From Candidatus Versatilivorator sp. (GTDB lineage: Bacteria; Acidobacteriota; Terriglobia; Versatilivoradales; Versatilivoraceae): a DNA stretch of 64,000 nt. Below are positions 21,368 through 55,528 of this stretch, one piece after another. The stretch's first letter is position 1; every line of letters starts with the position of its first letter. The stretch spans positions 1,309,808 to 1,373,807 of the forward strand of contig OZ242296.1 in assembly GCA_965207735.1 (NCBI GenBank), in the 5' to 3' direction. A program made the translations under genes and the position numbers. The notes under the pieces are model-generated. The model had not been told where the DNA came from. It searched no databases and saw nothing but the letters and a program-made list of their open reading frames with translations.

Positions 21368-23920
21368 ATGTTGCTTCTTAGACAGCCTCACCATTCACTG
21401 GCGAAGATCCTGGCCATTCTCCTGACGTGCCTGGGGTGCAGTTCCGATTTGGCCCACGGCCAGGCGGCCGCGAATCCCCCAACCCTGCTTTCGCTGCGGA
21501 TTGTACCGGAGGAAATTCATCTGTCGGGTCTCAATCCCTCCCAGCAGATACTGGTGCTGGGCAGGTATTCCGACGGCCTGGAACGGGACCTGACGGGTGG
21601 GTCGCCCCTGGCGGTGGGCTCTCCCGAGGTGGCTGTCATCGAGGCTGAAGGCAGATTGACTGCCCGTGCCGAGGGGGACACGGTCCTGGAAACCCATGTG
21701 GCCGGCCACTCAGCCAAGGCAACACTGACGGTCCGGTCGCTGGCCACGTCCCCACCCTTCAACTTTCAACAGGACATCGGTGGAATCCTGACCAAGCGGG
21801 GTTGCAACGACAGTGGTTGCCATGCGGGTGTCAAGGGACGAGGAGGTTTCAAGCTCTCCCTCAACGCGTTGGATCCGAAGGGAGACTACCGTTGGATCGT
21901 CAAGGGCGGCACCTACCAGGTCATGAGCCTGGAATCGGCGGGTCCTGAGTCTCCACGCATCGATCTGAGCCAACCCGAAAACAGCCTGCTGCTGCGCAAA
22001 CCCACCCTCCTTTTGCCTCATGGGGGTGGAGAGCGCCTGAGCACTCAGTCTTCCGACTACCGTACCCTGCTGGGCTGGATTCAGGCCGGCGCCCCCTACA
22101 AGCCCAAGGATTCAGAGGTGGAAGTCGAGCAGGTAACCCTGTTTCCCAAGGAACGCGTGCTCGATGCGCGCGGCACTTACCAGCTACTGGTCACTGCCCG
22201 ACTTGCCGACGGTCGAACCCGGGATCTGACCCGCCAGGCCTCCTACCATTCCGGCAACGAAGAGGTGGTGACGGTGACTGACTCCGGTCGAGTCCAGGCA
22301 CGGTCCAGGGGGGAAACGACCATCATCGTCCGCACGGCCGGTCATACCGTCAGCGCGCGTTTCGGAGTCATCTCCAAGCCTTTGCCGTCCAGCCCTTCGC
22401 CCCCGTCTCACAACTTTATCGATGACTACGTGTTCGGCAAGTTGAGTCGCTTTCACATCCCCTCTTCCCCGCTCTCCAGCGACGCCGAGTTTCTGCGCCG
22501 GGTCTGCCTGGACTTGACGGGAACGCTCCCGCCGCCCGGTCGGGTGCGGGAGTTTATTGCCAGTCGGGACCCTCAAAAACGAACGAAACTGATCGATGCC
22601 CTGTTGGATTCTCCCGAGTACGTGGACTTTTGGACTTTTCGCTTCGGCCAGCTCTTCCGGGTCGCGGCCGGCGCCGTCGGCGGGGCCGAGCATGCCTACG
22701 CCTACTGGCGCTGGGTCTGGGAGAACATCGCCCAAAACAAGTCCTATCGGGAGATCGCCCTGGACCGGCTGTCGGCCCAAGGCTACGAAGGCGCCTCCAG
22801 ACACTTTCTTTCCTACGGAGAAGAGGCCCGGGCGCCGGAAATCATGCCGGAAGAGGTGCGTATCTTCCTGGGAAGACGGCTGGATTGCGCCCAATGTCAC
22901 GACCACCCCTATGAGCAGTGGAGCCAGGATCAATTCTGGGGGCTTGCGGCCTTCTTCGGACAGATCAGCAGAACCGAATGGACCGGATTCGGGGCGGCGG
23001 TTCTCTTTGACGATCCCGCCGGCCGCCAACCGGATTTCGGAGAGTCTCCGGAAACCGTGAAGGTGATTCACCCCCGTCGCAAGCAACTCGTCGAGCCCGC
23101 CTTCCTGAACGGGCAAGCCATCTCTCCGACGGGCAACGGGCATCCGCGCCGGGAGTTCGGCCGCTGGGTCACGGCCCACCCCTATTTTGCGGAAACCCTG
23201 GTCAACCGCATGTGGGGTTACCTTTTTGGACGCGGCCTGGTGGATCCGGTGGATGATTTCCGCTCGACCAATCCGCCGACCCATCCCGATCTATTGAAGG
23301 CTCTGGCCGAGGACTGCCGCCTCCACGGATACGACCTGAAGCACATCCTGCGTCGCATCACCCGTTCCCGGGCCTACCAGCTTTCCTCGACTCCCCATGA
23401 GTCCAACCGCGAAGATGCCCTGAACTACTCACACTTCATCCCCAAGCCGCTGGAAGCCGAGGTGCTTCTGGACGCCATCAGCCAAGTGACCGGCGTCCCT
23501 GAAATCTTCGAGAACGGTCAGGGAGGTCAGGCTCCCCCGGGAACCCGAGCCATCCAACTCGAGGTGCCCGACATTTACCCCTCCGACTTTCTGCAGATGT
23601 ACGGGCGACCCAATCTTCAACAGATCCCGGAAATCAACGCCTCACCCAGCCTCACCCAGGCGCTTCACATGCTGGCGGGTAAGACCTACACGGAGAAGAT
23701 TTCCGGAAAAGGCGGGCGGCTCGACCGCTTGTTGCAGGAGGACGCCTCCCACCGGGAGGTGATTGAGGAACTCTATCTGGCAGCCTTGTCGCGCCTGCCC
23801 TCACCGCTGGAACTGGCCGAGCTGGAAGCCGCCTTGGGCAAGGGGCCCGAAAAAAGGCGGGCCTGGGAAGACCTGCTCTGGAGCCTGGTCACCTCCCGAG
23901 AGTTTGCCTTCAACCACTGA
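21368..23920 (+). CDS. PSCyt (planctomycete-type cytochrome c-like) / DUF1549 / DUF1553 protein with Ig-like Big_2 region
   Basis: 850 aa. Signal peptide. GCNDSGCHAG and LDCAQCHDHPYEQW motifs. Canonical pairing with the downstream DUF1501 gene. Confidence 0.85.
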   Translation: MLLLRQPHHSLAKILAILLTCLGCSSDLAHGQAAANPPTLLSLRIVPEEIHLSGLNPSQQILVLGRYSDGLERDLTGGSPLAVGSPEVAVIEAEGRLTARAEGDTVLETHVAGHSAKATLTVRSLATSPPFNFQQDIGGILTKRGCNDSGCHAGVKGRGGFKLSLNALDPKGDYRWIVKGGTYQVMSLESAGPESPRIDLSQPENSLLLRKPTLLLPHGGGERLSTQSSDYRTLLGWIQAGAPYKPKDSEVEVEQVTLFPKERVLDARGTYQLLVTARLADGRTRDLTRQASYHSGNEEVVTVTDSGRVQARSRGETTIIVRTAGHTVSARFGVISKPLPSSPSPPSHNFIDDYVFGKLSRFHIPSSPLSSDAEFLRRVCLDLTGTLPPPGRVREFIASRDPQKRTKLIDALLDSPEYVDFWTFRFGQLFRVAAGAVGGAEHAYAYWRWVWENIAQNKSYREIALDRLSAQGYEGASRHFLSYGEEARAPEIMPEEVRIFLGRRLDCAQCHDHPYEQWSQDQFWGLAAFFGQISRTEWTGFGAAVLFDDPAGRQPDFGESPETVKVIHPRRKQLVEPAFLNGQAISPTGNGHPRREFGRWVTAHPYFAETLVNRMWGYLFGRGLVDPVDDFRSTNPPTHPDLLKALAEDCRLHGYDLKHILRRITRSRAYQLSSTPHESNREDALNYSHFIPKPLEAEVLLDAISQVTGVPEIFENGQGGQAPPGTRAIQLEVPDIYPSDFLQMYGRPNLQQIPEINASPSLTQALHMLAGKTYTEKISGKGGRLDRLLQEDASHREVIEELYLAALSRLPSPLELAELEAALGKGPEKRRAWEDLLWSLVTSREFAFNH

Positions 23921-34260: not shown

Positions 34261-35190
34261 ATGAAAAGGGGCTTGTTTTCAGTATCTTATCGACCATTTC
34301 CAGCGAATCTTCGCTCGAGAGCCGTGCCCGGCACACTCCCTGGGGAAAAACGTCAGCCAGCCGCCGATGAGAGGTGTCTCAATCGTCGGTTCGGCATCCC
34401 CGCGAGCGCGGCGGCGCGATTATTCCTTGTTGCGGCCTTCTTCCTGACCTGGATAACTGTCGGTAGCGCCCAGCAACGGGAAAACACCAATCCCCACACC
34501 ACACCGGAAGACGTTGCCGCGGGGGGCCGTATCTATCGCTCCCATTGCGTCGAATGCCACGGTCGCGACGGAACGGGGGGCCGCGGGCCCGATATTACGC
34601 GGGGAGACCTGCGCTATGGAAACAGCGATGCTGCGTTGGCCGACACCATCTCGACCGGGATTCCGGGCACCTCAATGCCGCTGTTCTTCTTCAACGGCAA
34701 GCAGCTCTGGCAGATTGTGGCATTCGTGCAATCGCTCCGGCGAGACGAACCTCAGCCCCCGGGAGACCCTGCCGCGGGCGCTGCAATTTTTCGCGGCAAG
34801 GGAGGCTGCGTCGCCTGCCACATGGTGGACGGTCAGGGTGGACGCCAGGGGCCCGATCTGACAACCGTCGGCGCCAGGCGCTCGCTTCGCCACCTGCGGA
34901 GCGCCGTCCTTGACCCCGACCAATGGGTTCATCCCCGCGACTGGAAGATTCAGGCCAAAACAAGGAGCGGTGCGCCGGTGGAAGGAGTGCGGCTCAACGA
35001 AGACACCCACTCTCTGCAACTGCTGGTCTCCGGCGACAAACTCATCTCGCTGGTCAAGAGCGACCTGGAAAGCTATCGGATCATCAAGTCGTCCGCCATG
35101 CCGCCTTATGCCGGCCGATTGAGTCAAAGCGAGCTGGATGACCTGGTGGCTTACCTCTACACGCTTCGTGGAAAGGGGGTATCCCCGTGA
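34261..35190 (+). CDS. diheme c-type cytochrome
   Basis: Two CxxCH motifs (CVECH, CVACH). One TM/signal segment. The stop overlaps the start of the PQQ dehydrogenase (GTGA). Confidence 0.8.
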   Translation: MKRGLFSVSYRPFPANLRSRAVPGTLPGEKRQPAADERCLNRRFGIPASAAARLFLVAAFFLTWITVGSAQQRENTNPHTTPEDVAAGGRIYRSHCVECHGRDGTGGRGPDITRGDLRYGNSDAALADTISTGIPGTSMPLFFFNGKQLWQIVAFVQSLRRDEPQPPGDPAAGAAIFRGKGGCVACHMVDGQGGRQGPDLTTVGARRSLRHLRSAVLDPDQWVHPRDWKIQAKTRSGAPVEGVRLNEDTHSLQLLVSGDKLISLVKSDLESYRIIKSSAMPPYAGRLSQSELDDLVAYLYTLRGKGVSP

Positions 35191-36794
35191 AGATACTGTC
35201 AACTGTCGCGCTCACAATTCTGTGGAGTGGAAGCCTCCTTGGGCAGGTCAGCTACCAGCGGCTCCTGAACGCCGACGACGAGCCGGGCAATTGGTTGACC
35301 TATTCCAGAACCTACAACAGCCAACGGTACAGCCACCTGGATCAGATCCGGAGGGACAACGTCAACAACCTGGAGCTGAAGTGGGTTTTCCAGGCCAAGT
35401 CTCTCGAGAACTTCGAGGCGACCCCTCTGGTAGTGGATGGGGTCATGTATCTGACCCGACCGCCCAATGTGGTGGTCGCGCTGGATGCCCGGACCGGACG
35501 CGTTTTCTGGACCTACCACCACAAGGTTCCAAAGGAAGTCAGCGTGTGCTGCGGCCTGGTCAACCGAGGGTTGGCCATCCTGGACGACCTTCTCTTCCTG
35601 GGCACGCTGGACGCCCGCCTGCAAGCCATCGATGCCAAGACCGGTTCCCTGGTGTGGGACGTGAAGCTGGCGGACTTCCGGGACGGCTATGCGGTCACCA
35701 TGGCCCCGCTCGCGGTCAAGGACAAGGTGATTGTAGGCATGGCCGGGGGAGAGTACGGCATTCGCGGTTTCCTGGAAGCCTACGAAGCCAAGACCGGCAA
35801 GAGAGCCTGGCGCTTTCATACCATCCCGGGCCCCGGCGAACCGGGGAACGATACCTGGGAGGGGGACTCCTGGAAAACCGGCGGGGGATCGGCCTGGCTG
35901 ACGGGCTCCTTCGACCCGGAACTGAACCTGCTCTATTGGGGAATCGGGAATCCCGGCCCCGATTGGAACGGTGACGTGCGCAAGGGCGACAATCTCTATT
36001 CCGACTCGGTGGTGGCCCTGAATCCCGACAACGGCCGGCTTCAATGGCATTTCCAGTTCACCCCCCACGACCTCTGGGACTACGATGCCGTGCAGATTCC
36101 CGTCCTGGTCGACATGGAATTCGGCGGCCGGGAGCGCAAGCTGATGCTGTGGGGGAACCGAAACGGTTTCTACTACGTTCTGGACCGAACGGATGGCAGC
36201 TTCCTGCTGGGAAAGGCCTTCGCCCACCAGACGTGGGCCGAAGGCCTGGATGAAAACGGACGGCCCATCAAGAGGGCTGGGGCCGAACCCAGTGTGGAGG
36301 GCACCTTGACCTACCCCAGCGTGCAGGGTGCAACCAACTGGTACTCGCCCTCCTACAGCCCCAGATCGGGGCTCTTCTACTTGTCTGCCTGGGAATATGC
36401 CAGCGTCTACTTCAAGGGCGATCCCACCTACGTTCGCGGGAACCGCTACATCGGAAGCTTCCCCAGGGGCGTTTACCCGGACGTCATGGTGGACACCGAC
36501 CCGGGTTACGGCGCCGTGCGGGCCCTGGACCCCAAGACCGGCCAACGCAAGTGGGAATACAAGATGACCAGCGTGACCGAGGGTGGGATTCTGACCACTG
36601 CCGGCGACGTCCTGTTCTCGGGTAACATGGAGGGGCATGTCTTCGCCCTGGACGTCTTCGACGGCAGCCTCCTGTGGAGCCGCAACCTGGGCGGGCGGGT
36701 CATCAGTTCACCCATCACCTACCTGGTCGACGACAAACAGCACTATTCCATCGTTGCCGGGAATTCCCTCTACACCTTTGTTCTGAAGGATTGA
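35187..36794 (+). CDS. PQQ-dependent alcohol/methanol dehydrogenase, type I quinoprotein with D-Y-D motif (XoxF/PedH-like, predicted lanthanide-dependent)
   Basis: Signal peptide. Vicinal Cys pair (SVCCGLVNRG). Eight-blade propeller W motifs. HDLWDYDAV around the catalytic Asp. Confidence 0.85.
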   Translation: MKILSTVALTILWSGSLLGQVSYQRLLNADDEPGNWLTYSRTYNSQRYSHLDQIRRDNVNNLELKWVFQAKSLENFEATPLVVDGVMYLTRPPNVVVALDARTGRVFWTYHHKVPKEVSVCCGLVNRGLAILDDLLFLGTLDARLQAIDAKTGSLVWDVKLADFRDGYAVTMAPLAVKDKVIVGMAGGEYGIRGFLEAYEAKTGKRAWRFHTIPGPGEPGNDTWEGDSWKTGGGSAWLTGSFDPELNLLYWGIGNPGPDWNGDVRKGDNLYSDSVVALNPDNGRLQWHFQFTPHDLWDYDAVQIPVLVDMEFGGRERKLMLWGNRNGFYYVLDRTDGSFLLGKAFAHQTWAEGLDENGRPIKRAGAEPSVEGTLTYPSVQGATNWYSPSYSPRSGLFYLSAWEYASVYFKGDPTYVRGNRYIGSFPRGVYPDVMVDTDPGYGAVRALDPKTGQRKWEYKMTSVTEGGILTTAGDVLFSGNMEGHVFALDVFDGSLLWSRNLGGRVISSPITYLVDDKQHYSIVAGNSLYTFVLKD

Positions 36795-38579: not shown

Positions 38580-38658
38580 TCCGCAGGCAGGCTTCCTTGC
38601 CGAACCGATTGTCCTGAGCAGTCTGTCGGTACCCGAAGCCTTGGATCAGGGAGGCAGC

Positions 38659-39216
38659 ATGGCCCACATTCGAATGATCGCACCGGAAGCAGCCGAAGGC
38701 GCTCTCAAGGCGGAATATGCCTTGGCCATGGGGCGTTCGGGTAAGGTCTTCAACATCCTGAAGATCCAGAGCCTCAATGCTGCCACGCTTCATGCCAGCA
38801 TGGCCCTCTATGTGGCCACCATGCACGGGCCCTCCGGTCTTTCCAGGGCCGAGCGGGAAATGCTGGCCACGGTGGTTTCTCAACTCAACAACTGCTTCTA
38901 CTGAATGGAAGGCCACGGGGAGGATCTCCGTGCCCTGACGGGAAATCGATCACTTGCCGAGACCGTCAAGCGAAATTATCGGGACGCCCAGCTCAGCCCG
39001 CGCGAGCGGGCCTTGTGCGAGTTTGCCGAAAAACTCACCCTTCATCCCTCCCGAATGAGCACCGAGGACTGCCAAACGTTGAGAAGGGAGGGGCTCGACG
39101 ATCGAGATATCCTGGATGCCGTCGAAGTGATCTCCTACTTCAATTACATTAACCGCGTCGCCGAAGGGTTGGGAGTAGACCTGGAACCTGAAATGAAGCG
39201 CCCTGCAAAAGAGTGA
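38659..39216 (+). CDS. AhpD-like / carboxymuconolactone-decarboxylase (CMD) family peroxidase-related protein with in-frame UGA (38902-38904) predicted to encode selenocysteine
   Basis: GGGAGG RBS before the ATG at 38659. The ORF track splits it into 38641-38904 and 38905-39216, which are contiguous and in frame. Read through, the sequence is ...VVSQLNNCFY-U-MEGHGEDL. That is C-x-x-U-x-x-x-H, matching the CxxCxxxH active site of AhpD/CMD proteins. A hairpin starts 7 nt after the UGA. Confidence 0.6.
38911..38935 (+). promoter_or_regulatory. candidate bacterial SECIS-like stem-loop downstream of the in-frame UGA
   Basis: ggccacgggg aggat ctccgtgccc. 7-bp stem plus two closing G-C pairs. Apical loop AGGAU lies ~17-21 nt after the UGA. 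Confidence 0.4.
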
Positions 39217-40980: not shown

Positions 40981-42780
40981 TTAGGTGTCCCTCCTGGATA
41001 ACTCCTCCTTGGCCCAACGTCCCCAAGCTTCCACGCGTAGCGCCAATTCCCCAAAGAAATCCGCGCCGAAGTTACCACGAATCTCCCCTGCGATCCGATC
41101 CGCTTCCACGCTCAGGGCGGATAGTGACAAGTCCGCCAGAATAGTGGAGTCTTTCCGAGGACCGCGGGCGGCGGCCAGAATCTTGCCGGTCAGAACATCG
41201 GCTTCGCAAACACCCACCAGTTGCCGGAACAACAGGTCAAGATCCTCGTAGTCGTCGGGAGACAAGACCGCCCGTCCTTCAACTGAGACCTCCTCCGAAC
41301 AAAGCCGAGCCAGTCTGAGTCCTTCCACCTTGCGAGAGACCAACTGACACCAACCAATGGTCTCCACGGCCGTGCCTGACGGCATCCAGTCTACAACTCT
41401 CGAAAAGTCATTGTCCCCCAGTCCTCCGGTGACCTCGAGAATGTCCGGGGGAGGATTCCAGGGCACGGATCCGTGATCCTCAAGGCGGGTGGGCGGCCAT
41501 GGCAGGGTCGTATGCTCCATGACGCTGAACGGGTGCCAGTAGCCGCACCACAGCGGAGCGAATATCCCATGCACAATCTGTGGGGTTCGCTCGAACACCC
41601 GGGCCAGCAGGGGACCTGCATCGGCGCCGTAGCGGTCGGCCAGCCACTGCCAGGTGTAGGTCTGCCAACGCCGGGAAGGAGCCAGAAAATCCAGCCACTC
41701 CCCAATCGGTCGATTGTTGGCGGCATCGGAGGCCCAGCGGGAAAATGCGACGGCGTTGGCGGCATTGGGCGAATCGAAGATGGTTCGGTAGCGACGCCAC
41801 TCTCGTCCCGACTCATAGGCGATGCGAGCAGTCACCCCGCCGGGTTGCAGGGCATAGAGGGCATCCAGCCGCTCACAGAAGTGACGAGGGTCCACATAGG
41901 GAATGTCGGCCCGTCCGTAGTACTCCCCATACACGTCGAACTCGACGATCATGGGTCGCTTCGGGTAGGCGTTGAGGTTGGGATGGGGAACTTCGGCATT
42001 GGTGACGAAGTCGAGCACCACGTTCTTGATGTGAATCCAGACGTCCTCGGAAAGACTCTCCATCGCCTCCTTGAAGATAGACCCCTGCCATTGATTCTTG
42101 CCCACGGCTCCCCAGTCGCGAATAACCAGAGTCTTGCCTGCCTTGCGGCAAGCCCGTTCCATGGCTCCGAACACGCCGGCCAGCCGAGCAACCTGGTGAG
42201 TCCGGTCGGGCATTTTCAATACCCCGGGAGTTTCCGTGAGCGAGGTTACAACCAGAATGTCGACTTCCGGCGCCACTTCGAAAAACTCGGTGAGCGTGGC
42301 TTCCTCCCAGTCCCGCAGAAAACTCGGATCGCCCGTAGCTGACTCCGGGTATTCCTGAGCGAGCTCGTCCGGAAGATCCCGGCGAACATGGTGCCAGGCC
42401 ATGACGTCGAGACCGGAGGCCTTGACCCTGCCGAAGAGGTCCTTCATGTAAGTCAGATCCCGGCTACGATCCTCTAGAGTCGAGACCGCCCCCCGGCTGT
42501 GCAAGTCTTTGTGTCGAGCCAGCTTGGGAAAGTCCCGAAACGTCTGTCCGCAAAGCACCCAGTTCCGGCAGGGAGGCACCGGTGAACTGGTGTAGGCGTT
42601 GGGCAACTGCATGGCCATGTTGGGAAATTCCAGGTGAGTCACGTCGAATCCGGGCGCTTCCCTCGTCGCGCGCTCTGCCGCCTGGGCCAGGTAGGCCCTG
42701 TCGTGGTTGACGAGAAACTGCCAACCTCGTAGACCGAAGGGTCGATGGCTCCCTCTCGATCCGCTCTCTGTTGGATTCAC
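40981..42780 (-). CDS. hypothetical protein (~600 aa), possibly glycoside-hydrolase-like; N-terminal C2H2-like C-x5-C-x3-F-x5-L-x2-H-x3-H motif
   Basis: Long ORF with coding-like composition. Probable GTG start at 42780 preceded by AAGGAGAAAGG; the ORF track extends to 42807. Co-directional with the PPK2 gene, 35 nt upstream. No family confidently recognised. Confidence 0.55.
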   Translation of the reverse strand: MNPTESGSRGSHRPFGLRGWQFLVNHDRAYLAQAAERATREAPGFDVTHLEFPNMAMQLPNAYTSSPVPPCRNWVLCGQTFRDFPKLARHKDLHSRGAVSTLEDRSRDLTYMKDLFGRVKASGLDVMAWHHVRRDLPDELAQEYPESATGDPSFLRDWEEATLTEFFEVAPEVDILVVTSLTETPGVLKMPDRTHQVARLAGVFGAMERACRKAGKTLVIRDWGAVGKNQWQGSIFKEAMESLSEDVWIHIKNVVLDFVTNAEVPHPNLNAYPKRPMIVEFDVYGEYYGRADIPYVDPRHFCERLDALYALQPGGVTARIAYESGREWRRYRTIFDSPNAANAVAFSRWASDAANNRPIGEWLDFLAPSRRWQTYTWQWLADRYGADAGPLLARVFERTPQIVHGIFAPLWCGYWHPFSVMEHTTLPWPPTRLEDHGSVPWNPPPDILEVTGGLGDNDFSRVVDWMPSGTAVETIGWCQLVSRKVEGLRLARLCSEEVSVEGRAVLSPDDYEDLDLLFRQLVGVCEADVLTGKILAAARGPRKDSTILADLSLSALSVEADRIAGEIRGNFGADFFGELALRVEAWGRWAKEELSRRDT

Positions 42781-42814
42781 TCGCCTTTCTCCTTCTCTTG
42801 ATTCCATAAGCGGG

Positions 42815-50195: not shown

Positions 50196-50271
50196 GGCGA
50201 GGTACCCAAGTGGCTAAGGGAGAGGTCTGCAAAACCTTTATTCAGGGGTTCGAATCCCCTCCTCGCCTCCA
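50196..50271 (+). tRNA. tRNA-Cys (anticodon GCA)
   Basis: Cloverleaf: acceptor GGCGAGG/CCTCGCC, 3-bp D stem, anticodon stem GAGGT/ACCTT, loop CUGCAAA, T arm AGGGG-TTCGAAT-CCCCT, discriminator U73, encoded CCA. Confidence 0.9.
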
Positions 50272-54631: not shown

Positions 54632-55528
54632 ATGATCCATAGCATGACCGGATATGGTCGAGGCCAGTGGCAGGAGGAGAGTTGGCTCTGCCGGGTCGAG
54701 GTCAAGTCAGTCAATCACCGCTACCTGGACATCCACAACCGGCTGCCTTCCGAGTTCTCAAGCCTGGACGGCAAGGTCAGAAAGTGGGTCCAGGAACGAA
54801 TCAAGCGAGGTCGCATCGATCTCTTCCTGAAGATCGAAAACGGGGACGACCCGGGATTCAGCCTCAATCGACCGCTATTGGAGGGCTATCTGGACGCTCT
54901 GAGGCTTCTGCAAAAGGACTATTCCATAGGGGGAAACGTCGACCCGAGCCAGCTTCTGAGAATGCCTGGATTGCTGGCCCAGGAGTCGGTCCCTGTTTCG
55001 GATGCACAGTCGGCCGGGCTCGAGGCCGGGATCGCCAGCGCCGTGGGCCAGGCCCTGAGCGACCTGGTGACCATGCGGAGAACGGAGGGCCAGGTTCTGG
55101 AGGCTGAAATCCGGCAGCACCTGGACGCCCTGGAGACAGAAGCCCAACGAATTGAGACTCAGACGGAAGGGCTGCTGGAGCTGCATCGAGACCGTCTGAA
55201 GGCTCGCATGGAGACCATCCTTGCCGAGGTTGAGGTCGACCCGGCCCGCCTGCTTCAAGAGGCCGCCCACCAGGCCGAGCGCGGAGATATCCGAGAGGAA
55301 GTATCCCGGCTGTTCAGCCACGTGGCACAGTGTCGAGTTCTGTTGTCGAGCTCAGGCGAAGTGGGCAAGAAAATCGATTTCATGATGCAGGAAATGAACC
55401 GCGAGGCCAACACCATCCTGTCCAAGAATTCCGGCTTGGCGGACCGCAGACTGGATATCACCAATGCGGCCATCACGATCAAGACCGAGATCGAAAAAAT
55501 TCGCGAGCAGATCCAGAATGTGGAATGA
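54632..55528 (+). CDS. yicC: YicC-family stress-induced protein (DUF1732)
   Basis: MIHSMTGYGRG N-terminus and conserved C-terminal region. Confidence 0.8.
   Translation: MIHSMTGYGRGQWQEESWLCRVEVKSVNHRYLDIHNRLPSEFSSLDGKVRKWVQERIKRGRIDLFLKIENGDDPGFSLNRPLLEGYLDALRLLQKDYSIGGNVDPSQLLRMPGLLAQESVPVSDAQSAGLEAGIASAVGQALSDLVTMRRTEGQVLEAEIRQHLDALETEAQRIETQTEGLLELHRDRLKARMETILAEVEVDPARLLQEAAHQAERGDIREEVSRLFSHVAQCRVLLSSSGEVGKKIDFMMQEMNREANTILSKNSGLADRRLDITNAAITIKTEIEKIREQIQNVE

What the first reader, a model, noticed from the sequence alone, without database searches (positions are those of the whole stretch)
38641..39216. AhpD/CMD-family gene with an in-frame UGA at the active-site Cys position: candidate selenoprotein split by the ORF caller
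ORFs 38641-38904 and 38905-39216 are contiguous and in frame, separated only by TGA at 38902-38904. Read through, the protein is ...ATVVSQLNNCFY-U-MEGHGEDLRAL... This gives C-x-x-U-x-x-x-H, exactly the spacing of the redox-active CxxCxxxH motif of AhpD/carboxymuconolactone-decarboxylase-like peroxidase-related enzymes. Both halves alone would be truncated domains.

A stable hairpin starts 7 nt after the UGA. It is ggccacgggg-AGGAU-ctccgtgccc, placing a G-containing apical loop ~17-21 nt downstream. Bacterial SECIS elements occupy this position. AhpD-like selenoproteins are a known but sparsely annotated family. Automated pipelines will report this as two fragments or a pseudogene.
Basis: partly seen in the sequence, partly recalled or inferred. 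Interest (0 to 1): 0.72.

Follow-up and report, generated by a model that had tools for sequence, protein, structure and literature searches.

The report
AhpD-like selenoprotein gene split by UGA
The two adjacent short ORFs are one 185-codon gene for an AhpD-like redox enzyme whose in-frame UGA almost certainly encodes selenocysteine; the call is correct, but this selenoprotein family has been known since 2005, so the value lies in fixing the annotation.

Summary
TGA at 38902-38904 joins two in-frame ORFs into one gene (ATG 38659 to stop 39216). The read-through product is a single AhpD/CMD-fold domain: TIGR01926 scores 164.7 bits against a cutoff of 81.8, and the AlphaFold model has TM 0.90 to PDB 6k40. 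Its redox centre is E67...C79-F-Y-U82-M-E-G-H86, and U82 aligns with the second Cys of CxxC in Cys homologues.

The same column is TGA in 78 of 78 genome loci from at least nine phyla and in 47 of 48 metagenome relatives. The codon after it is a start codon in only 8 of 88, and both halves are under purifying selection.

A hairpin (38914-38932, GGA loop 17 nt after UGA) fits the bacterial SECIS rule. Its synonymous sites are frozen (codon entropy 0.46 vs 1.35 bit), but there is no covariation.

In about 20 orthologous loci the gene lies next to tRNA-Sec, selB and selA.

Not shown: selA, selB, selD and selC in this genome. None is in the 64 kb, and the rest of the genome was not available.

The family (AhpD-like, COG2128/TIGR01926, CxxU) is catalogued in the selenoproteome literature, so novelty is low. 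Public gene calls do split it (81 + 103 aa) or translate the UGA as Trp.

The parts
38650..38654 (+). Shine-Dalgarno-like GGAGG, 4 nt upstream of the ATG start
   Evidence: Read directly from the sequence. No comparable motif precedes ATG 38905.
38659..39216 (+). Complete AhpD-like selenoprotein gene: 185 codons plus a TGA stop, with Sec at codon 82
   Evidence: Translation. TIGR01926 164.7 bits vs cutoff 81.8 and PF02627 41.5 vs 23. AlphaFold model pLDDT 95.7, TM 0.90 to 6k40_A. dN/dS 0.19-0.44 on both halves against L001 and L003.
38857..38859 (+). Glu67 codon (GAA), 12 residues before Cys79. This is the position of the proton-relay Glu in AhpD-type active sites.
   Evidence: Sequence. The 'RE' is conserved in all full-length rows of alignment A1. 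The match to M. tuberculosis AhpD Glu118 rests on my own knowledge of that enzyme and was not tested here.
38893..38895 (+). Cys79 codon (TGC), first residue of the CxxU motif and presumed resolving Cys
   Evidence: The residue is Cys in all orthologues.
38902..38904 (+). In-frame UGA, predicted Sec82
   Evidence: TGA at the same column in 78 of 78 genome loci and 47 of 48 metagenome loci. Aligns with the second Cys of CxxC in Cys homologues and PDB chains.
38914..38916 (+). His86 codon (CAC), the H of CxxUxxxH. It is also the first three nucleotides of the SECIS upper stem.
   Evidence: H86 is invariant in A1. The codon is CAC in 20 of 20 clade members.
38910..38936 (+). Predicted bacterial SECIS hairpin: lower stem 38910-38912/38934-38936, C/C mismatch 38913/38933, upper stem 38914-38921/38925-38932, apical loop GGA 38922-38924 (17 nt after the UGA)
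   Evidence: RNAfold -17.4 kcal/mol. The core CAYGGRGAGGATCTCCG is nearly invariant in the clade. 92.5% of cells are paired vs 25-60% when the 3' arm is slid, with no double changes. Codon entropy is 0.46 vs 1.35 bit, p = 1e-4. This is among the most stable 3.4% of 42-nt windows in the gene.

Best explanation
Window 38659-39216 is one gene for a 185-residue AhpD-like ('peroxidase-related enzyme', TIGR01926/COG2128) selenoprotein.

**Translation.** During translation the UGA at codon 82 is decoded as selenocysteine. The mRNA hairpin that starts 9 nt downstream (8-bp stem, GGA loop) acts as a bacterial SECIS. It recruits SelB-GTP-Sec-tRNA(Sec) to the ribosome, so Sec is inserted instead of termination.

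**Product.** The protein is an all-helical AhpD/CMD-fold domain with a Glu67...Cys79-x-x-Sec82-x-x-x-His86 redox centre. Sec82 takes the place of the second Cys of CxxC, which is the nucleophile in M. tuberculosis AhpD. It cycles between a selenol and a Cys79-Sec82 selenenylsulfide. The enzyme would either reduce hydroperoxides directly or re-reduce a partner thiol peroxidase, and an unidentified dithiol donor would reduce it in turn.

**Shown here:**
- gene continuity, fold and family membership;
- alignment of the UGA column with Cys in homologues;
- conservation of TGA across phyla, and purifying selection on both halves;
- presence of the hairpin and its constraint at the nucleotide level;
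- linkage of orthologues to tRNA-Sec, selA and selB.

**Inferred:** actual Sec insertion in this organism, SelB binding to this hairpin, and the substrate and electron donor.
For: - **Family and fold.** TIGR01926 164.7 bits (cutoff 81.8) and PF02627. PDB 6k40 (D. radiodurans DR1765) at E = 1e-35 with CVYC aligned to CFYU. AlphaFold model pLDDT 95.7, TM 0.90 and rmsd 1.7 A to 6k40_A; it is one domain that spans the UGA.
- **Sec/Cys pair.** More distant homologues have CFYC, CAYC or CQYC at the same columns.
- **Conserved UGA.** TGA in 78 of 78 loci, that is the window, L001, L002 and 75 of the 80 genome loci, drawn from Acidobacteriota, Actinomycetota, Planctomycetota, Chloroflexota, Marinimicrobia, Gemmatimonadota, Zixibacteria, Verrucomicrobiota and Myxococcota MAGs. 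TGA in 47 of 48 metagenome loci.
- **No separate translation.** The codon after the UGA is ATG, GTG or TTG in only 8 of 88; it is mostly ACG, ATC, ATT or ACC.
- **Selection.** dN/dS 0.19-0.44 for both halves among three Terriglobia genomes.
- **Hairpin.** Leu90 is CTC in 20 of 20, Arg91 is CGT in 16 of 20 and Asp89 is GAT in 18 of 20, while the same amino acids elsewhere in the gene use 2-6 codons freely. Each of these third positions pairs inside the stem.
- **Sec machinery in orthologous loci.** tRNA-SeC lies within 0.04-5 kb in 16 loci. selB and selA lie next to the gene in about 19 loci. This was confirmed with NCBIfam: TIGR00475 346 and 356 bits, TIGR00474 528 and 564 bits.
- **Genetic code.** TGA is the normal stop in this window (16 of 27 long ORFs, including this gene's own stop), so there is no code 4 or 25.
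- **Literature.** AhpD-like protein, CxxU, COG2128/TIGR01926 (PMC1088965, PMC2398784, PMC13188914). Deleting DR1765 sensitises D. radiodurans to H2O2, and restoration of resistance was much weaker with variants mutated in the CxxC cysteines (PMC8945050, citing Zhao et al. 2020).
Against: - No tRNA-Sec, selA, selB or selD in the 64 kb window, nor in the +/-10 kb around the Terriglobia orthologues L001 and L003. The Sec-decoding trait of this particular genome is therefore assumed, not shown.
- The hairpin's stability is unremarkable against shuffles (z = -1.87).
- The helix shows no compensatory double substitutions. The RNA-level evidence is synonymous-site freezing rather than covariation, and the sequences compared are related.
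- No Rfam family matches the site.
- The one Cys-containing relative that encodes HGEDLR (L084) carries the same hairpin, so no independent Cys-clade control was available.
- Substrate and reductant are unknown. The neighbours (Gate-domain membrane protein, PQQ dehydrogenase, CehA/McbA hydrolase) give no clear functional hint.
Confidence: 0.9

Rival explanations
1. Nonsense pseudogene or sequencing error. A Cys codon (TGC/TGT) mutated to TGA, or was misread, and the gene is dead in this genome.
For: TGC to TGA is a single-base change. One relative (L084) does have TGC. No Sec machinery is seen in the window.
Against: TGA sits at exactly this column in 78 of 78 and 47 of 48 independent loci across many phyla. 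Both halves are under purifying selection (dN/dS 0.19-0.44). There are no other stops or frameshifts. The downstream hairpin is conserved at synonymous sites.
Confidence: 0.02
2. Relic selenoprotein gene. The family is a true selenoprotein family, but this lineage has recently lost the Sec machinery, so here the UGA terminates translation and the gene is decaying.
For: The Sec trait is patchy and frequently lost in bacteria (PMC1794560). No sel genes or tRNA-Sec are seen in the window or near L001 and L003.
Against: Three Terriglobia genomes with dS 0.2-0.66 between them all keep the TGA, an intact hairpin and low dN/dS downstream of the UGA (C-terminal half 0.18-0.29). A downstream half that is never translated would drift neutrally. 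In most genomes the sel genes are not linked to a given selenoprotein gene, so their absence from 64 kb says little.
Confidence: 0.04
3. Split gene. The two halves are translated separately, the second from ATG 38905, and assemble into a heterodimeric AhpD-like domain with no residue at the UGA position.
For: In this window an ATG immediately follows the TGA, and L001 has GTG. Gene callers do predict a 103-aa product.
Against: The next codon is a start codon in only 8 of 88 orthologues. L003, at 83% identity, has ACG. There is no Shine-Dalgarno motif before 38905 and no promoter or terminator between the halves. The split would remove the catalytic residue from a CxxC...H centre, and the break would fall just before a helix of one compact domain.
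Confidence: 0.02
4. The UGA is read as a standard amino acid (Trp, Gly or Cys), either through an alternative genetic code or through SECIS-independent near-cognate read-through.
For: Database proteins P0001-P0007 and others show W at this column.
Against: Those W residues are TGA in the DNA, called under code 4 on short contigs. The locus 'does not translate to query' under table 11. In the window TGA ends 16 of 27 long ORFs, including this gene. Trp or Gly at the catalytic CxxC position would make no chemical sense. Orthologues sit next to tRNA-Sec, selA and selB.
Confidence: 0.02

Closest known systems
AhpD-like selenoprotein family (COG2128 / TIGR01926, CxxU), Zhang, Fomenko & Gladyshev 2005 (Sargasso Sea, PMC1088965); 'AhpD-like 1' in the GOS analysis (PMC2398784); listed in the 2026 review table (PMC13188914) and in BSepDB (PMC13326102)
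   Same: Same model (TIGR01926 above cutoff), same CxxU motif with Sec at the second Cys position, one Sec per protein, SECIS directly downstream of the UGA, and widespread Cys homologues.
   Different: Nothing essential differs. The host is a soil or freshwater-type Terriglobia (Acidobacteriota) lineage, whereas the family was first described from marine metagenomes. I did not find Acidobacteria named as hosts of this particular family in the papers I read.
DR1765, AhpD-like protein of Deinococcus radiodurans (PDB 6k40), and the structural-genomics relatives 3c1l (Mlr4105), 2pfx, 2oyo and 2prr
   Same: Same subfamily and fold (E = 1e-35, 40% identity, TM 0.90). Same E...CxxC...H centre. The DR1765 mutant is H2O2-sensitive, and restoration of resistance was much weaker with CxxC-mutated variants (PMC8945050).
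   Different: These proteins have Cys where the window protein has Sec, so they need no SECIS.
Mycobacterium tuberculosis AhpD (PDB 1gu9/1knc; TIGR00777)
   Same: CMD/AhpD helical fold and a Glu-Cys-x-x-Cys-x-x-x-His redox centre. It works as a disulfide reductase for AhpC with weak peroxidase activity (my own knowledge plus PMC8945050).
   Different: Only distant similarity: TIGR00777 20.9 bits vs cutoff 191.95, and Foldseek E = 0.078 with TM about 0.5 to 1gu9. The architecture and oligomer differ, and no ahpC neighbour is present here.
NF041238 AhpD_rel_CFYUT 'alkylhydroperoxidase-related (seleno)protein' ('hypothetical protein 1' of the Sargasso Sea)
   Same: The same local motif C-F-Y-U and an AhpD-related domain.
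   Different: That family is about 357 residues long. The window protein matches only its C-terminal half, at 71.9 bits against a cutoff of 175, so it is not a member.

Membership tests
AhpD-like selenoprotein (TIGR01926 / COG2128, CxxU) | Whole-protein match to TIGR01926 above the curated cutoff | tested here: met
   164.7 bits vs 81.8; residues 20-177 on profile positions 19-177 of 178
AhpD-like selenoprotein (TIGR01926 / COG2128, CxxU) | In-frame UGA at the second Cys of the CxxC(xxxH) redox motif, with Cys-containing homologues at the same column | tested here: met
   C79-F-Y-UGA82-M-E-G-H86. Homologues have CFYC, CAYC or CQYC. The PDB chains 6k40, 3c1l and 2pfx align Cys to that column.
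AhpD-like selenoprotein (TIGR01926 / COG2128, CxxU) | UGA conserved in orthologues, with coding sequence conserved on both sides | tested here: met
   78 of 78 and 47 of 48 loci have TGA. dN/dS 0.19-0.44 for both halves.
AhpD-like selenoprotein (TIGR01926 / COG2128, CxxU) | Bacterial SECIS: a stem-loop just downstream of the UGA, with the apical loop 16-37 nt from the UGA and a G in the first two loop positions (bSECISearch consensus, recalled from Zhang & Gladyshev 2005) | tested here: met
   8-bp stem, GGA loop 17 nt after the UGA, -17.4 kcal/mol. Synonymous sites are frozen. 92.5% paired with no covariation. bSECISearch itself was not available, and SelB binding cannot be tested with these tools.
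AhpD-like selenoprotein (TIGR01926 / COG2128, CxxU) | Sec-decoding machinery (selA, selB, selD, tRNA-Sec) in the same genome | not testable with these tools
   Only 64 kb of the genome is available. The window holds one tRNA (Cys) and no SelA, SelB or SelD hit. In about 20 orthologous loci from other phyla, tRNA-SeC, selB and selA lie beside the gene.
AhpD-like selenoprotein (TIGR01926 / COG2128, CxxU) | Selenium actually incorporated at residue 82 | not testable with these tools
   Needs 75Se labelling or mass spectrometry.
CMD/AhpD fold superfamily (Pfam PF02627) | Pfam match above the gathering score and an all-helical AhpD fold | tested here: met
   41.5 bits vs 23. Model pLDDT 95.7 with nine helices. 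TM 0.90 and rmsd 1.7 A to 6k40_A.
NF041238 AhpD_rel_CFYUT (seleno)protein | Score at or above 175 bits over a profile of about 357 positions | tested here: not met
   71.9 bits, matching profile positions 153-342 only. Not filed under this family.
Canonical AhpD (TIGR00777, M. tuberculosis type) | Score at or above 191.95 bits, plus partnership with AhpC | tested here: not met
   20.9 bits. No Pfam or NCBIfam label among the annotated neighbours points to a peroxiredoxin (AhpC). The protein may work like an AhpD but is not an AhpD equivalog.

The most novel reading that the evidence does not exclude
In several soil lineages the AhpD-like selenoprotein may be tied to the Sec system itself rather than being just another peroxide-defence enzyme. 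In Gaiellales, Thermoleophilia and other Actinomycetota MAGs, and in one Phycisphaerae MAG, it is wedged between tRNA-Sec and selB-selA. It could be the anchor selenoprotein that keeps the Sec trait alive, or a selenol/selenide-handling partner of Sec biosynthesis. The Terriglobia copy in this window would then be an unlinked member of the same functional module. A lesser novelty is that L084 would be a caught-in-the-act Sec-to-Cys reversion with an intact 'fossil' SECIS. The 2026 review says such reversions are rare in bacteria and documented mainly for FdhA and SelD.
Probability: 0.1. Interest if true: 0.5.

Novelty: already known. Interest (0 to 1): 0.2.

Why it matters
- **Annotation.** In this genome and its relatives the gene is reported as two fragments (81 + 103 aa), as a truncated 'peroxidase-related enzyme', or with a spurious Trp. 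Merging the pieces with a Sec exception at codon 82 gives the correct protein.
- **Marker of the Sec trait.** The gene flags this Terriglobia lineage as a likely selenocysteine user. That bears on selenium ecology in soils and sediments.
- **No new biology.** It does not open a new biological question, because the family, its motif and its SECIS position have been described since 2005.

Tried and rejected
1. **Source contig.** I looked for the window's own contig by exact protein, using the 103-aa product and the 443-aa Gate protein. Neither is on record, so the genome could not be extended to search for sel genes.
2. **Sec machinery near the gene.** There were no hits in the window or in the Acidobacteriota loci, and no SelD hit anywhere. 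Hits in other phyla were verified with NCBIfam.
3. **Rfam.** The gathering-threshold search of the whole window found only tRNA-Cys. The E-value search around the UGA found only a chance sRNA hit at E = 7.4 on the other strand. Nothing in Rfam matched this hairpin.
4. **Covariation test on the hairpin.** No double substitutions were found because the helix is nearly invariant. I used synonymous-codon entropy and within-gene stability rank instead.
5. **Cys-form negative control.** The only Cys homologue encoding HGEDLR (P0042/L084) has the same hairpin. All 47 of its metagenome relatives in which the motif could be located are TGA. It is therefore nested inside the Sec clade and cannot serve as a control.
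6. **Second selenoprotein in the window.** I scanned for ORF pairs joined by an in-frame TGA. The other candidates are ordinary consecutive genes, for example DUF1553-like then DUF1501-like at 23918, and YicC-like then guanylate-kinase-like at 55526.
7. **Promoter and terminator scan between the halves.** Nothing was found.
8. **Other family assignments.** Membership in NF041238 (CFYUT) and in TIGR00777 (true AhpD) was considered and rejected on score.

Full report
**1. The observation**

TGA occupies 38902-38904 and lies in frame between ORF 38641-38904 and ORF 38905-39216. Read through, the protein contains ...LNNCFY-UGA-MEGHGEDLR..., that is C79-x-x-U82-x-x-x-H86.

The most likely start is ATG 38659, preceded by GGAGG at 38650-38654, rather than TTG 38641. 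All orthologues begin MA(H/Y/W)I at this point. The gene is therefore 38659-39216, or 185 codons plus a stop.

The hairpin is real. RNAfold gives an 8-bp upper stem (38914-38921 with 38925-38932), a GGA triloop (38922-38924), a C/C mismatch (38913/38933) and a 3-bp lower stem, at -17.4 kcal/mol. By itself this is not exceptional: z = -1.87, and 11 of 200 shuffles fold as well.

**2. What the protein is**

With Cys in place of the UGA, the protein matches Pfam CMD (PF02627, residues 43-123, straddling the UGA). It also matches NCBIfam TIGR01926 'peroxidase-related enzyme' at 164.7 bits against a cutoff of 81.8.

Two related families were tested and rejected on score:
- TIGR00777, the true AhpD family: 20.9 bits against 191.95.
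- NF041238 'AhpD_rel_CFYUT (seleno)protein': 71.9 bits against 175.

The nearest solved structures are 6k40 (D. radiodurans DR1765, E = 1e-35), 3c1l, 2pfx and 2oyo. Their CxxC motifs (CVYC, CYYC, CFYC) align with CFY-U.

An AlphaFold model of the read-through has pLDDT 95.7. It superposes on 6k40_A with TM 0.90 and rmsd 1.7 A over 177 columns. It is one compact nine-helix domain that needs both 'halves'.

**3. Is the UGA a sense codon?**

*Truncated and mis-translated database entries.* The protein search returned many 103-108-residue proteins, 58-92% identical, that begin exactly at the residue after the UGA. It also returned full-length proteins with W at the UGA column. For P0001 the W is a TGA in the DNA, called under a TGA=Trp code on a 903-nt contig; the other W entries also sit on short contigs but were not checked. 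The following codon there is ATC, which is not a start. More distant homologues have Cys at that column.

*Genome loci.* A scan of one genome per species returned 80 loci. The motif could be located in 78 sequences: the window, L001, L002 and 75 of those 80 loci. In all of them the column is TGA. The hosts are labelled Acidobacteriota/Terriglobia, Actinomycetota (Gaiellales, Thermoleophilia), Planctomycetota, Chloroflexota, Marinimicrobia, Gemmatimonadota, Zixibacteria, Verrucomicrobiota and Myxococcota.

*Metagenome loci.* A metagenome scan seeded with the one Cys-containing near relative (P0042) returned 47 more loci, all with TGA.

*Following codon.* The codon after the UGA is ATG, GTG or TTG in only 8 of 88 loci. 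The downstream half therefore cannot generally be translated on its own.

*Selection.* Among the three closest genomes (window, L001, L003) dN/dS is 0.31-0.44 upstream of the UGA and 0.18-0.29 downstream.

*Genetic code.* TGA is the commonest genuine stop in the window (16 of 27 long ORFs), and it ends this gene too. A reassigned code is excluded.

**4. The SECIS**

The loop begins 17 nt after the UGA and starts with GG. This fits the bacterial consensus as I recall it from Zhang & Gladyshev 2005: loop 16-37 nt from the UGA, with a G in the first two loop positions.

In the window's clade (20 sequences down to about 55% protein identity) the core CAC-GGR-GAG-GAT-CTC-CGT is almost invariant. 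The frozen positions are synonymous ones that pair inside the stem:

| Residue | Codon in the clade | Elsewhere in the gene |
|---|---|---|
| Leu90 | CTC in 20 of 20 | other conserved Leu codons use 3-6 synonyms |
| Arg91 | CGT in 16 of 20 | mostly CGC or CGG |
| Asp89 | GAT in 18 of 20 | about 50:50 GAT/GAC |

Mean codon entropy is 0.46 bit for the hairpin codons against 1.35 bit elsewhere (Mann-Whitney p = 1e-4).

Pair counting gives 92.5% of cells paired, against 25-60% when the 3' arm is slid. The only variation is G-U to A-U, and there are no double substitutions. This is constraint, not covariation.

Across 78 genes the 42 nt after the UGA fold better than other windows of the same genes (-13.6 vs -11.0 kcal/mol). 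The window's own site is in the top 3.4%. The sequences are related, so that p-value is optimistic.

Other clades carry a different hairpin (GACCTCC-N4-6-GAGGTC) a few nucleotides further downstream.

**5. Sec machinery**

The window contains only tRNA-Cys and no SelA, SelB or SelD homologue. The +/-10 kb around the Terriglobia orthologues contains none either. The window's genome is not on record by exact protein, so the rest of the genome could not be inspected. This is the one untested requirement.

The family, however, is physically tied to the machinery elsewhere. ARAGORN finds tRNA-SeC within 0.04-5 kb of the gene in 16 loci. selB and selA lie next to it in about 19 loci. NCBIfam confirms this for L045 and L073: TIGR00475 at 346 and 356 bits, and TIGR00474 at 528 and 564 bits.

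**6. Mechanism**

*Shown:* one gene, one AhpD-like domain, a conserved UGA at the position of the second active-site Cys, and a constrained downstream hairpin.

*Inferred:* SelB-dependent Sec insertion, and a redox cycle in which Sec82 is the nucleophile and Cys79 resolves it to a selenenylsulfide. Glu67 and His86 would act as the proton relay, by analogy with M. tuberculosis AhpD Glu118, Cys130, Cys133 and His137 (from my own knowledge of that enzyme).

The closest characterised relative, DR1765, protects D. radiodurans against H2O2, and restoration of resistance was much weaker with variants mutated in the CxxC cysteines (PMC8945050). A role in peroxide or redox defence is therefore the best guess.

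Substrate and reductant are unknown. The neighbours are a cytochrome c, a PQQ dehydrogenase, a Gate-domain membrane protein and a CehA/McbA-type hydrolase. This order is conserved in L001 and L083 but is not informative about function.

**7. Comparison with what is known**

The AhpD-like CxxU family was reported from the Sargasso Sea in 2005, with 27 sequences assigned to COG2128 (PMC1088965). It appears as 'AhpD-like 1' in the GOS data, with 299 sequences (PMC2398784). It was found in cultured genomes in 2006, including a Clostridia genome (Alkaliphilus metalliredigenes) (PMC1794560). [quoted passage not shown]

The window gene meets every family feature that could be tested. It is an ordinary member in a Terriglobia host.

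**8. Verdict**

I put about 0.9 on a genuine selenoprotein gene. The remaining doubt is mainly that the Sec machinery of this genome was not seen.

Novelty is low because the family is already known. The practical value is correcting the split or truncated annotation and flagging the lineage as a Sec user.

Noticed in passing
L045 9816-13598; L037 9868-13447; L073 105-3488; also L021, L022, L028, L030, L033, L038, L044, L052, L053, L057, L059, L060, L068, L071, L076, L082: In Gaiellales, Thermoleophilia and other Actinomycetota MAGs, and in one Phycisphaerae MAG, the AhpD-like UGA gene lies between tRNA-SeC and selB-selA. The tRNA is divergent and as close as about 40-90 nt upstream. selB-selA is convergent, and in L045 selB ends 68 nt after the gene. 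selD was not found nearby. I did not see this linkage mentioned in the papers I read.
   Followed up: partly
L084 1364-1912 (Logan SRR13378649), Cys codon at 1607-1609: P0042 is the only near relative with TGC (Cys) at the Sec column, yet it keeps the identical hairpin CACGGGGAGGATCTCCGT. All 47 of its metagenome relatives have TGA. It looks like a very recent Sec-to-Cys switch with a 'fossil' SECIS, or an assembly error. The 2026 review says Sec-to-Cys switches are rare in bacteria.
   Followed up: partly
P0001-P0007, P0013, P0019 and others; L002 565-567: Many full-length database proteins of this family carry Trp at the Sec column. Checked in the DNA for P0001 (L002), the Trp is a TGA called under a TGA=Trp code on a short metagenomic contig. 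This looks like a systematic artefact that hides selenoproteins. Other entries are C-terminal fragments of 103-108 aa, for example MBZ5514231.1, named 'peroxidase-related enzyme'.
   Followed up: yes
L017-L082 (e.g. L025 10264-10281, L055), L131, L132: Clades outside the window's clade use a different post-UGA hairpin (GACCTCC-N4-6-GAGGTC, loop starting about 23 nt after the UGA) built from the codons for D-L-R-x-E-V. The SECIS appears to have been remodelled within one selenoprotein family.
   Followed up: no
L117 557-647, L118, L121, L123-L125, L128-L130; L031 2783-2990, L051 460-668, L058: In one metagenome clade a tRNA-Ser(GCT) gene sits about 110-200 nt upstream of the AhpD-like gene, on the opposite strand. 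Pairs of tRNA-Ser genes lie a few kb away in some actinobacterial loci. This is probably plain synteny, and no meaning was established.
   Followed up: no
window 35187-36794: The PQQ-dependent dehydrogenase of the methanol/ethanol family (TIGR03075, 575 bits) also scores 525 bits on TIGR04528 'acido-empty-quinoprotein group A', below that model's cutoff of 650. The gene order HpcH/HpaI aldolase, cytochrome c, PQQ dehydrogenase, Gate-domain protein, AhpD-like gene, CehA/McbA hydrolase is shared by the relatives L001 and L083. Window ORFs at the last four positions were checked and match; the first two were not.
   Followed up: partly
window 40981-42807 (-): This 608-aa ORF has no NCBIfam hit, and its 599-aa counterpart in L001 has no Pfam hit. 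It is a conserved protein of unknown function immediately downstream of the CehA/McbA gene.
   Followed up: no
window 50196-50271: tRNA-Cys(GCA) is the only tRNA in the window. L003 has a tRNA-Cys at a comparable distance (about 9 kb) downstream of its AhpD-like gene, which is consistent with extended synteny.
   Followed up: no
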